64,000 bases of DNA from a virus: the IMG/VR virus record IMGVR_UViG_3300042398_001385, positions 89,315-153,314 of that record; one strand, given 5' to 3'. Shown here in pieces: positions 41,836-55,305 of the stretch; position 1 is the first letter of the stretch, and each line of letters starts with the position of its first letter. Below the pieces are notes generated by a model, which was not told the origin of the DNA, searched no databases, and saw nothing but the letters and a program-made list of their open reading frames with translations. The position numbers and the translations under genes were made by a program.

Positions 41836-41840
41836 AATTG

Positions 41841-41912
41841 CGGGGAAGGCTGGATTCGAACCAGCGACCTATCGATTAACAGTCGAGAGCTCTACCGCTG
41901 AGCTACATCCCC
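41841..41912 (-). tRNA. tRNA-Asn(GTT)
   Basis: Loop CTGTTAA. Confidence 0.9.
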
Positions 41913-41917
41913 AGTTT

Positions 41918-41999
41918 AGATTAGAGAATATTTGAGCGAGGTGTTTTTTGGTCAAATTTAAAAGTTCTGAGAAGTAACCCCATTCACCGCTTCTAATCT
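41918..41999 (-). ncRNA. GAAGCGG/TACTTC/TTCTC-family ncRNA (candidate Y-like RNA), copy inside tRNA operon 1
   Basis: Closing stem AGATTAGA/TCTAATCT; same motifs as the three copies beside the Ro60 gene. Confidence 0.7.
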
Positions 42000-42001
42000 T
42001 G

Positions 42002-42074
42002 TAGTCCCTGAGGGATTCGAACCCCCGACATTTTGGATGTAAACCAAACGCTCTACCAACTGAGCTAAGAGACT
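42002..42074 (-). tRNA. tRNA-Val(TAC)
   Basis: Loop TTTACAT. Confidence 0.9.
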
Positions 42075-43715: not shown

Positions 43716-44234
43716 TTAAATTAAAAATTTAATAATTTTATCCTTAATTCCTGACTGTTTTATCCCCTCATTATAAGGTTTGGTAGTCATTACAAAGTTT
43801 TCTAGTTTAGAAAGATTCATATCATCTACTGCCACCCAATGTGTTACCTCTGGATGGTTTTTAAGCCATTCTTTAATCTCTGTAAAACGAATAGCTTCGT
43901 AAAGATTTTTCCATTTGAAAAGTCCAAAACCATTCTCGTCGAAATCTTTCATATTAGGTGTAAGATCAATTGGGGGTTTAATTCCACGGGTAACATACAT
44001 CTTTTTCATTTGTTCAAGATTACCCCAGTTTTTCCAATCGGAAGAAATAACAATCTCGCATCCTGTTTCTTCGATAATTTGATTTAGAACTTTAACAGCT
44101 TTAGAATCAAAGCTATCCATTCGAATATCCAAAGGGGTTTCTGGGTTACTATCGTATCCCTTCTTTTTGAATCGTCCTCCCCATTGTGAGGAAAGACAGA
44201 TTACTCCATCATGATCTAAAAATAAAACTTTCAT
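43716..44234 (-). CDS. HAD-superfamily phosphatase (Swiss-army-knife RNA-repair HAD type); start corrected to 44234
   Basis: FLDHDGV, ISSDW, EIKEWL, VAVDD motifs. Confidence 0.78.
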   Translation of the reverse strand: MKVLFLDHDGVICLSSQWGGRFKKKGYDSNPETPLDIRMDSFDSKAVKVLNQIIEETGCEIVISSDWKNWGNLEQMKKMYVTRGIKPPIDLTPNMKDFDENGFGLFKWKNLYEAIRFTEIKEWLKNHPEVTHWVAVDDMNLSKLENFVMTTKPYNEGIKQSGIKDKIIKFLI

Positions 44235-44235
44235 G

Positions 44236-44309
44236 TGGTCCCTCACGGGCTCGAACCGTGGACCTACTGATTATGAGTCAGTTGCTCTAACCTGCTGAGC
44301 TAAGGGACC
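44236..44309 (-). tRNA. tRNA-Ile2(CAT), lysidine type
   Basis: Loop CTCATAA; GGTCCCT acceptor; near-identical to 49153-49226. Confidence 0.8.
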
Positions 44310-52752: not shown

Positions 52753-52785
52753 ATTAGTATTTATCTATTTTCTACATAAAAACAC

Positions 52786-52812
52786 AAAAAAAATCCCTAT
52801 TGCTAGGGATTT
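52786..52812 (-). terminator. Intrinsic terminator after the Ro60 gene
   Basis: AAATCCCTA/TAGGGATTT stem plus U-tract. Confidence 0.8.
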
Positions 52813-52834: not shown

Positions 52835-54466
52835 TTATTTTTTGGACTCTATAGAATCCCAAGTATCTATAATAGCATTGGCAAATATTGGTTCTTTACC
52901 AGTCCATCCTGCTAATATTGCACCTCTATAAAGATTTTCAGGAAGTACAGAATTGTTGTAACCTGCAACTTGTATACAGAAGACATTAACCTTAGGATTA
53001 ACAGTTCTTCTATATTCTTGTACCATTGCTAGAACGTCGACGTTTACTGATCCCTTATCTCCGTGTCCATAAGGAGAAACCCCAACTGTGTCTCCGTGTC
53101 CATATAAACCTCCATGTCCTGCCTGCATATCTGAGTATATGAAAACAGTATCATAATGTGTCTTATTTTTTATAGCATCGTCCCAGAATATCCATATTCC
53201 ATTTTCTGTTCCACCTCCTTGTTCTCTACCTCTTTTAGATGTCTCTGCTAATTGAGTGAGTATACCATTTCTTTTAGAAACTCCTTTTAGTGATAATTCA
53301 TCTCCAAATACTCCTACAATACCTTCGTCGGACTGTAAAGCAGTTGTTAATGAAGAAAGGTTAGCTATTTCTGCTACTGTTACAGTTCCATATTCGCTAT
53401 TAAAAGATCTCCATGCTGATCCTGAGTTGTCAGATAGACAAGCAGTTTTACCTTTTAATTTAGGCATATTAGATACTGAAATATCTAAGCACTCCTCTAA
53501 AGTATCCAGTACAAGCTGTTTGTGGTGTATATCAGAACCTTGAATTGCTTTGAAAGCAGACCAATATCTGAATGGAAATTGTTTTCCGTTTTCAACCCCA
53601 GATTTTAGTTGAGCTAATATTCTTGCTGTGATTGTACGATCATCTACTTCTGTAAAAATACCTCTAAGGTTTCTCAACAACGCCATATGAGGAATAAGAA
53701 TGGTATCTGTTATTTCCTTCCATGTTTTTCCTTCAGATCTTAGAGTTTCCCAAGTTTTTTCGCTCTCTTTAACTTTTAAAGTACCAGTAGACATTAACTC
53801 ATTTATGTCCTCTCCTTTTGCGTGAGATATACGTACAAGATCTATTAGTCTTTTTCCTTTGTACTTATTTAATTGGTATCTGCTAAATTCTCCAAGTCTT
53901 TCTGCCCAAGTTCTTTTAACCATAGACGAAAGACCTTTTTTATCTCCATTCTTATACATGTAGTATTCGAATTGATTAGTCAAATCATCTGGTCGTAAAG
54001 AAATAGCTTTACCTATACTCTTCATGTACCCCGGATTACTTTCATTAAACTCGACTCTTGAAGGGTGTTGTGAAGCTTTTATAAAGATCACAGCTGGATT
54101 AAGTCTCATAAAGAAATTAGTTCTTAGATCTAGGGCTAAATCCAATGTTCCTTTAAAATCGTAACTTAAAGCAGATTCTATAGCATTTTCAAAAATCTCA
54201 GTAGCAGTTACATCTGATTGATACATTGATGGAAATATAGAATATTTTGACAATGTCTGTAGATTGCTAGGAGCCTTTAATCCATCTCTATAATACTGAG
54301 GCTCTCCAAATATAGACGAAGCCGCTACGATTCTTAAAGTGTCTAGAGGATTTATCTCATAGGATGTCCCTCCCATAAAATTTTCCACTGCAAAAGCACC
54401 GTAAATTGAATTTTGTGCAATTTGCATTGCCATTTTTTTGTCTGCGTAATCACTTAACTTTGACAT
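52835..54466 (-). CDS. rsr: Ro60/TROVE-domain RNA-binding protein with vWA domain
   Basis: YQLNKYK, TWETLRS, MALLRNLR, QFPFRYWSA; DNSGS MIDAS motif; YSDMQ. Confidence 0.92.
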   Translation of the reverse strand: MSKLSDYADKKMAMQIAQNSIYGAFAVENFMGGTSYEINPLDTLRIVAASSIFGEPQYYRDGLKAPSNLQTLSKYSIFPSMYQSDVTATEIFENAIESALSYDFKGTLDLALDLRTNFFMRLNPAVIFIKASQHPSRVEFNESNPGYMKSIGKAISLRPDDLTNQFEYYMYKNGDKKGLSSMVKRTWAERLGEFSRYQLNKYKGKRLIDLVRISHAKGEDINELMSTGTLKVKESEKTWETLRSEGKTWKEITDTILIPHMALLRNLRGIFTEVDDRTITARILAQLKSGVENGKQFPFRYWSAFKAIQGSDIHHKQLVLDTLEECLDISVSNMPKLKGKTACLSDNSGSAWRSFNSEYGTVTVAEIANLSSLTTALQSDEGIVGVFGDELSLKGVSKRNGILTQLAETSKRGREQGGGTENGIWIFWDDAIKNKTHYDTVFIYSDMQAGHGGLYGHGDTVGVSPYGHGDKGSVNVDVLAMVQEYRRTVNPKVNVFCIQVAGYNNSVLPENLYRGAILAGWTGKEPIFANAIIDTWDSIESKK

Positions 54467-54492
54467 ATATTTGTTTTTAAATTTTACTAAAT

Positions 54493-54527
54493 AAAAAAAG
54501 GGTTTAGTCGCTAGCGTCTAAACCCCT
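54493..54527 (-). terminator. Intrinsic terminator between the ncRNA cluster and the Ro60 gene
   Basis: GGGTTTAG/CTAAACCC stem plus U-tract. Confidence 0.8.
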
Positions 54528-54534
54528 TAGTGTC

Positions 54535-54609
54535 GTTCTGAGAAAATCGATTTCGAGGATTTTTCGAGTCTAACAATATATGAAGTATCTCAAAATCCCG
54601 CTTCAGAAC
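54535..54609 (-). ncRNA. Candidate Y-like RNA A
   Basis: Stems GTTCTGA/TCAGAAC and GATTTTGAG/CTCGAAATC; GAAGCGG, TACTTC, TTCTC motifs. Confidence 0.7.
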
Positions 54610-54614
54610 AATTT

Positions 54615-54695
54615 TAAATCCGAGAATATTAGTGAAAGGCGTTTTTTCTTTTTTCCTAAATATTGAAGTAACCATTCACACCGCTTCGGAGTTTA
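54615..54695 (-). ncRNA. Candidate Y-like RNA B
   Basis: Stems TCCGA/TCGGA and GTGAATGG/CCTTTCAC; same motifs. Confidence 0.7.
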
Positions 54696-54702
54696 TATAA
54701 TT

Positions 54703-54933
54703 TTTTTCTTGAGAAATCTCTAAAGAGTGGTCCCTCCTTATGGGAGGTAATCATTCCCTCATTTCTAGTCTGGTGAATTAAACCGAGCTACTGATTTTTC
54801 TCTTATGTCCTTTCGTAAATAAGAGCGCCTCATCTATAGCAGTACTGAGACCTGTGTAGATTAGAACCGGAGAACTAATCTTTTTCTGCGTTTATAATTT
54901 TTGAAGTAACCCTTTAAACCGCTTCAAGAAAAA
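54703..54933 (-). ncRNA. Candidate Y-like RNA C with large multi-hairpin insert
   Basis: Stems TTTTTCTTGA/TCAAGAAAAA and TTTAAAGGG/CTCTTTAGA; same motifs. Confidence 0.7.
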
Positions 54934-54939
54934 TATGTA

Positions 54940-54986
54940 TGTTAAAGAACGTTTTATTAATATATTGCAAATTTAGATAAAGTTTC
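54940..54986 (-). promoter_or_regulatory. GAAAC-N17-TATA promoter plus boxA (GTTCTTTAACA) for the ncRNA cluster
   Basis: Matches to the recurrent promoter motif and to the boxA consensus. Confidence 0.65.
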
Positions 54987-55305
54987 AATTTAAAACCTGA
55001 TGATCCTCAAGAAATTTTTTAATTTGTTCATCATTTTTTACTCCAGAGAATCTTGCTATCTCTTTATCTCCCTCTATAAGTACACAAGTTGGAATATTTC
55101 TTATGTTGAATTTCTTTGCAGATTCTTCCGCCTCACTAACATCAGCTTTTACTATTTTTATATTTTCTGATAGTTCAATTTCTAATTTTTCTAGTGACGG
55201 CTTAATTATTTTACAAGGCCCACACCAATCAGCGGAAAAAAGAACTAAAGTTTTTTCACCACTTACAATTGCTTCATTTAACTGTTCATCGTTAATAATT
55301 TTCAT
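54985..55305 (-). CDS. trxA: Thioredoxin
   Basis: WCGPC active site; IPT cis-Pro motif. Confidence 0.93.
   Translation of the reverse strand: MKIINDEQLNEAIVSGEKTLVLFSADWCGPCKIIKPSLEKLEIELSENIKIVKADVSEAEESAKKFNIRNIPTCVLIEGDKEIARFSGVKNDEQIKKFLEDHQVLN

What the first reader, a model, noticed from the sequence alone, without database searches (positions are those of the whole stretch)
52835..54986. Phage Ro60 beside a cluster of related ncRNAs: candidate new Y-RNA class
Three tandem elements upstream of the Ro60 gene, and a fourth in the tRNA array (41918-41999), share one layout: closing stem, GAAGCGG, second stem, TACTTC, variable domain, second stem partner, TTCTC, closing stem partner. Stem sequences differ between copies but stay complementary, while the motifs are invariant. 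The cluster has its own promoter, boxA and terminator. Established knowledge: bacterial Ro60 (Rsr) genes sit next to Y RNAs and are linked to tRNA damage and RNA repair. The motifs do not resemble the canonical Y RNA Ro-binding helix as I recall it, so the Y-RNA assignment is inference from adjacency.
Basis: partly seen in the sequence, partly recalled or inferred. Interest (0 to 1): 0.82.

Follow-up and report, generated by a model that had tools for sequence, protein, structure and literature searches.

The report
Phage Ro60 with four Y RNAs
A giant freshwater phage carries the ring-shaped RNA-binding protein Ro60 together with four small folded RNAs that share one conserved two-helix "handle"; they are most likely an uncatalogued branch of the known Ro60 partner RNAs (Y RNAs), not a new kind of system.

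Summary
Four copies of one structured RNA lie on the minus strand: three in tandem upstream of a Ro60/TROVE gene and one in a tRNA slot 12.6 kb away. Both helices are strongly supported by compensatory changes across 90 distinct copies.

A covariance model finds the element beside Ro60 genes, on the same strand, in about 50 uncultured phages and in Bacillus phage G. It also finds it in seven bacterial assemblies, including a Flavobacterium chromosome. In three whole bacterial genomes it occurs only at the Ro60 locus.

The element is not in Rfam. Its architecture, however, matches the Ro60-binding module of bacterial YrlA:
- a closing stem ending in GA/UC;
- a 5-nt loop containing GC;
- a second stem;
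- a conserved UA.

One phage G copy joins this handle to a YrlA-type rearranged tRNA. In this window the "cargo" loops are short and A-rich in three copies and a conserved domain of about 190 nt in the fourth.

Verdict: these are Y RNAs in the broad sense, a new sequence subfamily with modular cargo, not a new class. Binding to Ro60 and discrete transcripts remain untested. First-reader notes elsewhere in this scan report the same handle in two other genomes.

The parts
54705..54931 (-). Element A: handle RNA with a structured cargo of about 190 nt. P1 5' strand 54924-54931, AGCGG loop, P2 5' strand 54910-54918, UUACUUC 54903-54909; P2 and P1 3' strands at the low-coordinate end.
   Evidence: Exact motif. 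P1 8/8 and P2 9/9 pairs. The MFE fold gives the same P1/P2. The cargo is conserved with covarying helices in 14 relatives. There is no Rfam match.
54616..54693 (-). Element B: short handle RNA (78 nt) with an A-rich loop
   Evidence: Exact motif; model R1 74.4 bits (it was in the training set); MFE fold agrees.
54534..54610 (-). Element C: short handle RNA (77 nt)
   Evidence: Exact motif; R1 68.3 bits (in the training set); P1 8/8 and P2 9/9 pairs.
41918..41999 (-). Element D: short handle RNA (82 nt). It fills the slot between tRNA-Val (42001-42074) and tRNA-Asn (41840-41912).
   Evidence: Exact motif; R1 72.2 bits; tRNA coordinates. The same Val|Asn slot is occupied in five related contigs, and a Gln|Tyr slot in two others.
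52835..54466 (-). Ro60 (TROVE + vWA) gene, 543 aa
   Evidence: Pfam TROVE. Profile hits PDB 9kop/9l5y and 2nvo. Invariant DxSxS..T..D. 51% identical to Bacillus phage G gp540.
54959..54988 (-). Promoter-like site for the A-B-C cluster: TTGAAA-18-TATATT. It contains TAAATTTG (54968-54975), a Bacteroidota-style -7 box.
   Evidence: Consensus scan. TAnnTTTG is kept in relatives. This is consensus-level evidence only.
54940..54951 (-). boxA-like leader CGTTCTTTAACA, 8 nt before element A
   Evidence: GTTCTT(T)A(A) is kept at the same place before the first element in about 20 relatives, including distant ones. The resemblance to rrn boxA is from memory.
54490..54528 (-). Intrinsic terminator (11+2 bp hairpin, U7) between element C and the Ro60 start codon
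   Evidence: Fold -14.7 kcal/mol, z -3.4. Relatives keep a GC hairpin plus T-run at this place.
52783..52812 (-). Hairpin plus U-run after the Ro60 stop codon (probable terminator)
   Evidence: Read directly from the sequence; not scored.

Best explanation
The four elements are phage-encoded Y RNAs in the broad sense.

Each has a constant two-helix handle: P1 ending in G-C and A-U pairs, an asymmetric internal loop AGCGG / AAUAUUC, a 9-bp P2, then UUACUUC. The handle is the docking site for the phage's own Ro60 ring. Each also has a variable cargo loop that gives the particle its second contact.

Three of them (A, B, C) are made as one transcript from their own promoter behind a boxA-like leader. 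That transcript ends at a terminator about 25 nt before the Ro60 start. The fourth (D) is transcribed inside a tRNA operon and is set free when the flanking tRNAs are cut out.

By analogy with Deinococcus RYPER and Thermus phage phiLo, the Ro60-RNA particles would tether or gate a host exoribonuclease such as PNPase during infection. The different cargos would give different partners.

Shown here: the RNA structure, its conservation, and its exclusive linkage to Ro60 genes. Inferred: transcription and processing, Ro60 binding, and the effector.
For: - Structure: 17 of 17 pairs show double compensatory changes. 84-88% of cells are paired against 55-56% in shuffles and 38-50% when slid.
- Invariant unpaired letters G10, C11, U29, C31, U33, C34 and the loop C on the 3' side in 90 distinct copies.
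- Linkage in phages: 113 model hits in about 50 Ro60 loci, all on the Ro60 strand. They lie upstream in near relatives and downstream in distant ones.
- Viral pattern hits that pass the model but lack Ro60 are all fragments 9-22% complete that hold the tRNA-slot copy. The one 96%-complete record has Ro60 adjacent.
- Bacterial scan: 7 of 40 pattern hits pass the model, and exactly those 7 have a Ro60 gene (37-58% identity) next door. In three whole bacterial genomes the model hits only the Ro60 locus.
- Kinship with known Y RNAs: the Rfam YrlA consensus is stem cggCga / loop AUGCu / 7-bp stem / CUA ... aAaAcUuG / ucGccg, the same plan as here.
- Published motifs GNCGAA(N0-1)G and YUAY. The UA kink is conserved in YrlA. 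The Yrn1 probe complement reads GGCGGAAGCGGUG.
- Bacillus phage G has five tandem copies in the unannotated 1-kb gap before gp540. A sixth copy carries a cargo that is a rearranged tRNA, hit by RF02553 (36 bits, E 1.2e-5).
- Phage Ro60 binding two upstream Y-like RNAs and host PNPase is shown for phiLo.
- Module behaviour: in L037 the same handle, capped at P1 and open at P2, replaces the anticodon arm of a tRNA body.
Against: - There are no transcript or binding data.
- Rfam finds nothing at E<=10 over the A-B-C cluster (54400-55050; element D was covered only by the gathering-threshold scan of the window), and the YrlA model hits only tRNA junctions in this genome. My model does not hit a canonical YrlA in Gordonia phage Neville.
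- The GNC part of the published Ro60-contact motif is not conserved here. Those positions covary as ordinary stem pairs, so the protein contacts may differ.
- Single-sequence fold energies are not unusual, z -0.4 to -1.6. The case rests on covariation.
- Ro60 genes at 26-34% identity (L051, L052, Desulfovibrio phage) lack this handle.
- PNPase as the partner is analogy only.
Confidence: 0.82

Rival explanations
1. The elements are cis-acting leader structures that control Ro60 expression, for example Ro60 binding its own leader to favour termination. They would not be free small RNAs.
For: A-B-C lie directly upstream of Ro60 on the same strand, with a terminator only about 25 nt before the start codon and no room for a separate Ro60 promoter. 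In Flavobacterium sp. 9AF the single copy ends in a U-run 15 nt before the Ro60 ATG.
Against: In distant relatives the copies lie downstream of Ro60. Copy D is 12.6 kb away in a tRNA slot that is conserved in seven contigs. There are 2-6 copies with different cargos, including whole tRNA look-alikes. Autoregulation could coexist with a trans role.
Confidence: 0.07
2. They are decayed tRNA genes or tRNA-operon spacer/processing signals unrelated to Ro60.
For: Copy D occupies a tRNA-sized slot with 1-5 nt spacers. Relatives carry tRNA-like cargo. The copies are packed 5-11 nt apart like tRNAs.
Against: None of the four copies has a cloverleaf or a tRNA hit. The conserved part is the handle, not a tRNA feature. 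The handle tracks Ro60 in phages and bacteria and is absent elsewhere in three whole bacterial genomes rich in tRNA genes.
Confidence: 0.03
3. The handle docks a different protein, or acts on its own as a decoy or sponge, and Ro60 is only a frequent neighbour.
For: The GNC letters contacted by Ro60 in other systems are not conserved. The neighbourhood holds many ORFs of unknown function.
Against: Ro60 is the only gene that stays beside the element across phage lineages and in cellular Flavobacterium, where the other neighbours are an amidase and a cNMP-binding regulator. The handle plan equals the YrlA Ro60-binding module.
Confidence: 0.05

Closest known systems
YrlA / YrlB Y RNAs of bacteria and mycobacteriophages (Rfam RF02553; Chen et al. 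2014, PMC4201824; Wang et al. 2018, 10.1101/312249)
   Same: Encoded within a few kb of Ro60 on the same strand, in two or more copies. The 5' and 3' ends pair in a stem that closes with ..GA/UC... A 5-nt loop containing GC, a second stem, then a conserved UA follow. The cargo module is variable. A phage G copy carries the YrlA-type rearranged tRNA on this handle.
   Different: Neither model finds the other family. The GNC of GNCGAA(N)G is not kept. AGCGG, UACUUC and AAUAUUC are conserved on both strands, whereas only the 5' strand is recognisable in YrlA. The four copies here have no tRNA-like domain: three carry A-rich loops and one a domain of about 190 nt.
Deinococcus radiodurans Yrn1 / Yrn2 with Rsr and PNPase (RYPER)
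   Same: Both strands of the Ro60-binding helix are conserved. The complement of the published Yrn1 probe contains GAAGCGG. In Yrn1 the tRNA-like arms are in normal order, as in the tRNA cargo of relatives such as L032.
   Different: I could not fetch the Yrn1 sequence for alignment. The PNPase link is untested here.
Thermus phage phiLo Ro60 with Yrl1 and Yrl2 (PMC12135203)
   Same: A phage Ro60 with tandem Y-like RNAs just upstream. The phiLo protein is the best solved-structure match of this Ro60 family (E 3.5e-30).
   Different: The phiLo RNAs were picked by a CGAA motif and folding, not by a conserved covarying family. No tRNA-operon copy or large cargo is described there.
Metazoan Y RNAs
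   Same: A terminal stem with the Ro60 site, a large loop as effector module, and 80-130 nt in size.
   Different: The bulged GGUCCGA/UUGAC helix is not present, and there is no sequence similarity beyond GA(A)G.

Membership tests
YrlA (Rfam RF02553) | Match to the family covariance model at or above its gathering score (69 bits) | tested here: not met
   No YrlA hit on the elements at E<=10. Hits in this genome are tRNA junctions of 10-26 bits. The positive control, Gordonia phage Neville, scores 44 bits over the full model length.
YrlA (Rfam RF02553) | Rearranged tRNA-like domain (T arm, closed acceptor-like stem, D arm) | tested here: not met
   There is no tRNA-like feature in A-D. It is present on the same handle in Bacillus phage G L180:1722-1879.
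YrlA / YrlB (Chen et al. 2014) | GNCGAA(N0-1)G near the 5' end | tested here: inconclusive
   GAAG is present in all four copies (G 85/90, A 82/90, G 90/90 across the family). The GNC positions vary and covary with the 3' strand. A few relatives read GGCGAAG.
YrlA / YrlB (Chen et al. 2014) | Conserved YUAY / UA after the stem | tested here: met
   U 90/90, A 86/90, C 90/90 directly after P2. The UA kink is conserved in YrlA.
Bacterial/phage Y RNA (broad sense) | Encoded near Ro60, on the same strand | tested here: met
Bacterial/phage Y RNA (broad sense) | 5' and 3' ends paired in a stem next to an internal loop, plus a second module | tested here: met
   Covariation counts.
Bacterial/phage Y RNA (broad sense) | Bound by Ro60 in vivo or in vitro | not testable with these tools
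Ro60 / Rsr protein | TROVE (HEAT ring) plus vWA domain with a MIDAS motif | tested here: met
   Pfam TROVE. Profile hits to solved TROVE/Rsr structures. Invariant D346-S348-S350, T420, D446.

The most novel reading that the evidence does not exclude
The handle is a general docking plug that lets one Ro60 ring display interchangeable RNA cargos. In related phages the cargo is a whole tRNA look-alike with an authentic anticodon loop. Lys-UUU recurs in five loci that mostly also hold an ordinary tRNA-Lys. That would fit decoys or sensors for host anticodon nucleases or other tRNA-directed defence enzymes. In this phage the conserved 190-nt cargo of element A would be a new effector domain, and the tRNA-operon copy would couple Ro60 particle supply to tRNA expression.
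Probability: 0.15. Interest if true: 0.75.

Novelty: new variant of a known kind. Interest (0 to 1): 0.5.

Why it matters
Bacterial and phage Y RNAs are known almost only through the tRNA-like YrlA model. The authors of that work stated that many Ro60-bearing genomes had no detectable partner RNA.

This handle gives a covariation-backed, searchable signature for such partners in giant freshwater phages, Bacillus phage G, Flavobacterium, other Bacteroidota and Ruminococcus. It shows that the docking module is kept while the cargo is swapped: A-rich loops, a 190-nt domain, and tRNA look-alikes in either strand order.

It also points to two culturable systems, phage G on Bacillus megaterium and Flavobacterium sp. 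9AF, where Ro60 binding and function could be tested directly.

Tried and rejected
- GAAG pairing with the CUUC of UACUUC (a pseudoknot or alternative hairpin) was rejected. The third letter varies A/C/U and the partner U/A without Watson-Crick correlation.
- Rfam at relaxed threshold on the cluster gave only noise: PISRT1, snoRNAs and similar, all far below their cut-offs.
- The YrlA model on the own genome hits only junctions of neighbouring tRNAs.
- Single-sequence phmmer of Ro60 against the PDB gave nothing. The family profile was needed.
- A 14-base pattern scan of viral contigs returned mostly chance matches. About 35 of the first 100 loci passed the model; L153-L171 were not run through it.
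- The gapped pattern in genomes gave 33 of 40 chance matches.
- A search for permuted handles in the window found none; the one match is the B/C junction.
- RtcB and T4 Rnl1 families were not found in the 153-kb contig, which is about 53% complete. One ligase match fell below its cut-off.
- The supplement of Chen et al. 2014 is not held, so I cannot say whether phage G was among their 22 phages.
- The review PMC10870794 is not held.
Full report
**What is there.** The window comes from a 153-kb, roughly half-complete viral contig of 33% G+C. On the minus strand, 52835-54466 encodes a 543-aa protein. It matches Pfam TROVE (E 2.7e-8). As a 17-member family profile it matches the solved Thermus phage TROVE protein (9kop/9l5y, E 3.5e-30) and Deinococcus Rsr (2nvo, E 3.5e-4). 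A DxSxS..T..D metal-site motif is invariant. It is a Ro60.

The motif GAAGCGG-N10-TACTTC occurs exactly four times in the window, and in the whole contig, always on this strand. Reading the sequence and a pairing script gives four complete elements:
- A, 54705-54931 (227 nt);
- B, 54616-54693;
- C, 54534-54610;
- D, 41918-41999.

**Structure.** Each element has this order:
- P1, 8 bp; its last two pairs are the GA of GAAGCGG with the final UC of UUCUC.
- An internal loop, AGCGG opposite (A)AUAUUC.
- P2, 9 bp.
- N-UACUUC, a variable stretch, then the return strands.

In an alignment of 33 short copies from this and related contigs, every one of the 17 pairs shows double compensatory changes. 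84% of cells are paired against 56% after shuffling and 38-50% when the partner is slid. The same holds for 90 distinct model-aligned copies: 87.6% against 55%.

The G1-C and A2-U pairs switch to GU/AC, GG/CC and AA/UU in relatives. The unpaired letters G, C (of AGCGG), U, C, U, C (of UACUUC) and the loop C on the 3' side are invariant or nearly so. Single-sequence folding energies are unremarkable, z -0.4 to -1.6, so the case rests on covariation.

**Linkage to Ro60.** A protein-guided search found 48 viral contigs with a relative of this Ro60. Nearly all carry 2-5 copies of the motif on the Ro60 strand. The copies lie upstream in near relatives and downstream in those at about 50% identity. 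The exceptions are loci cut at the gene's edge and two distant Ro60s.

A covariance model, R1, was built from the short copies. It gives 113 hits in these loci, all on the Ro60 strand.

The reverse test started from the DNA motif alone:
- In viral contigs, model-positive loci without Ro60 are all fragments 9-22% complete that hold the tRNA-array copy. A 96%-complete record has Ro60 right beside its copies.
- In 185,579 prokaryote assemblies a gapped pattern gave 40 hits, about the number expected by chance. Seven pass the model, and exactly those seven have a Ro60 gene (37-58% identity) adjacent. None of the other 33 does.
- In three of these genomes, searched whole, the model hits only the Ro60 locus (only the 150 best first-look candidates per genome were scored).
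- One is the chromosome of the isolate Flavobacterium sp. 9AF. There a single copy ending in a U-run sits 20 nt before Ro60, among ordinary cellular genes.
- Bacillus phage G, a cultured phage whose gp540 is 51% identical, has five tandem copies in the unannotated 1-kb gap before gp540 and two more nearby.

**Relation to known Y RNAs.** Rfam has no match to the A-B-C cluster even at E<=10; element D was covered only by the gathering-threshold scan of the whole window. Its YrlA model hits only tRNA junctions here.

Yet the published bacterial Ro60-binding signature is GNCGAA(N0-1)G near the 5' end plus a conserved YUAY (PMC4201824). The UA is a conserved kink in the YrlA crystal structure (10.1101/312249).

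The Rfam YrlA consensus, seen in full on Gordonia phage Neville, reads: stem cggCga, loop AUGCu, 7-bp stem, CUA ... then aAaAcUuG and ucGccg on the return. That is the same plan as P1..GA / AGCGG / P2 / UUAC ... AAUAUUC / UC..P1'. The complement of the published D. radiodurans Yrn1 probe contains GGCGGAAGCGGUG.

One phage G copy (L180:1722-1879) joins this handle to a T arm, an ACCA-ended acceptor-like stem-loop and a D arm in the YrlA order. RF02553 scores it at 36 bits, E 1.2e-5.

In more distant phages the cargo is a complete tRNA look-alike in normal order, attached by its acceptor end. ARAGORN assigns Lys-UUU cargo in L032, L036, L037, L039 and L048; other cargos read as Thr, Ser, Leu or UUA. 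In L037 the handle is capped at P1 and opened at P2 to replace the anticodon arm of a tRNA body.

The handle therefore behaves as a self-contained docking module with exchangeable cargo. Thermus phage phiLo Ro60 has been shown to bind two upstream Y-like RNAs and, with them, host PNPase (PMC12135203).

**This window's copies.** B, C and D carry 35-45 nt loops with an A-rich tract before the P2 return strand. A carries about 190 nt that is conserved in 14 relatives, with at least three covarying hairpins and long conserved single-stranded runs. It has no Rfam match and no tRNA features.

D fills the slot between tRNA-Val and tRNA-Asn with 1-5 nt spacers. The same slot is filled in five related contigs and a Gln|Tyr slot in two others. 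Its ends are therefore probably made by the enzymes that cut out the neighbouring tRNAs; this is inference.

A-B-C follow a promoter-like site. Its TAAATTTG box is kept as TAnnTTTG in relatives; from memory this is the Bacteroidota -7 consensus, which would fit the bacterial hits. A boxA-like CGTTCTTTAACA is conserved 8-12 nt before the first copy in about 20 relatives. The cluster ends at a strong hairpin plus U7 just before the Ro60 start. Ro60 is then probably expressed by read-through; this too is inference.

**Mechanism and confidence.** Most likely (about 0.8), the handle docks the phage Ro60 and the cargo contacts a second component, giving several kinds of Ro60 particle in the infected cell. 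Tethering or gating of a host 3'-5' exoribonuclease is the best-documented precedent, but here it is analogy only.

The rivals are each unlikely:
- A purely cis-acting Ro60 leader does not fit the variable positions or the distant tRNA-slot copy.
- Decayed tRNAs or processing signals do not fit the exclusive Ro60 linkage.
- A different protein partner would have to explain why Ro60 is the only constant neighbour.

**Novelty.** Y RNAs beside bacterial and phage Ro60 genes are known. New here is a well-defined handle subfamily missing from Rfam and conserved on both strands. It lacks the GNC contact letters. It is spread over giant freshwater phages, phage G, Bacteroidota and Ruminococcus. Its cargo includes a 190-nt domain, and one copy is embedded in a tRNA operon. 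I rate it a new variant of a known kind, of moderate interest.

**Earlier notes of this scan.** First-reader notes report the same handle in two other genomes (e1-5882158, e1-5768871), and follow-up reports describe related handle-plus-cargo arrays. I used these as leads only.

Noticed in passing
window 43716-44246 (-): A 176-aa ORF inside the tRNA arrays matches the HAD domain of 'Swiss Army Knife' RNA repair proteins (PF18143, E 1.3e-23). It is the only RNA-repair-type gene I found on the contig. RtcB and T4 Rnl1 were not detected, but the contig is only about 53% complete.
   Followed up: partly
window 54985-55305 (-): A thioredoxin gene (PF00085, E 1.4e-24) lies immediately upstream. The promoter-like site of the RNA cluster overlaps its 3' end.
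   Followed up: no
L034:1809-2452: A related phage carries a full-length ROOL RNA (Rfam RF03087, 284 bits) among tRNA genes about 1.5 kb upstream of its Ro60 gene. Five handle RNAs lie downstream of that gene.
   Followed up: no
L037:8140-8271: A tRNA body (acceptor, D and T arms) whose anticodon arm is replaced by the same handle in permuted form: P1 capped by a 6-nt loop, P2 open. The same phage also has handles with tRNA cargo attached at the acceptor end.
   Followed up: partly
L032:5618-6121, L036, L037, L039, L048: tRNA look-alike cargos have authentic-looking anticodon loops. Lys-UUU recurs in five loci, and L039 and L048 also hold an ordinary tRNA-Lys(UUU) in the nearby array.
   Followed up: partly
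L197:5093-6792 (Flavobacterium sp. 9AF chromosome): A cellular Ro60 (52% identity) has one short handle RNA 20 nt upstream that ends in a U-run. Its neighbours are an amidase and a cNMP-binding regulator, so it does not look like a prophage.
   Followed up: partly
L190 and L099: A contig binned in a Melioribacteraceae MAG has the same length (177,804 bp), the same model hit and the same Ro60 match as an IMG/VR viral contig. It is probably a phage contig binned into a bacterial MAG.
   Followed up: no
L052:1892-2249 and L180:8590-8898: Phage-encoded tmRNA genes lie near the Ro60 and tRNA regions of a distant relative and of Bacillus phage G.
   Followed up: no
window 54968-54975 and relatives: The conserved TAnnTTTG box upstream of the RNA cluster, the lack of Shine-Dalgarno sequences before Ro60, and the bacterial hits in Flavobacterium, Chitinophagales and Saprospiraceae suggest a Bacteroidota host.
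   Followed up: partly
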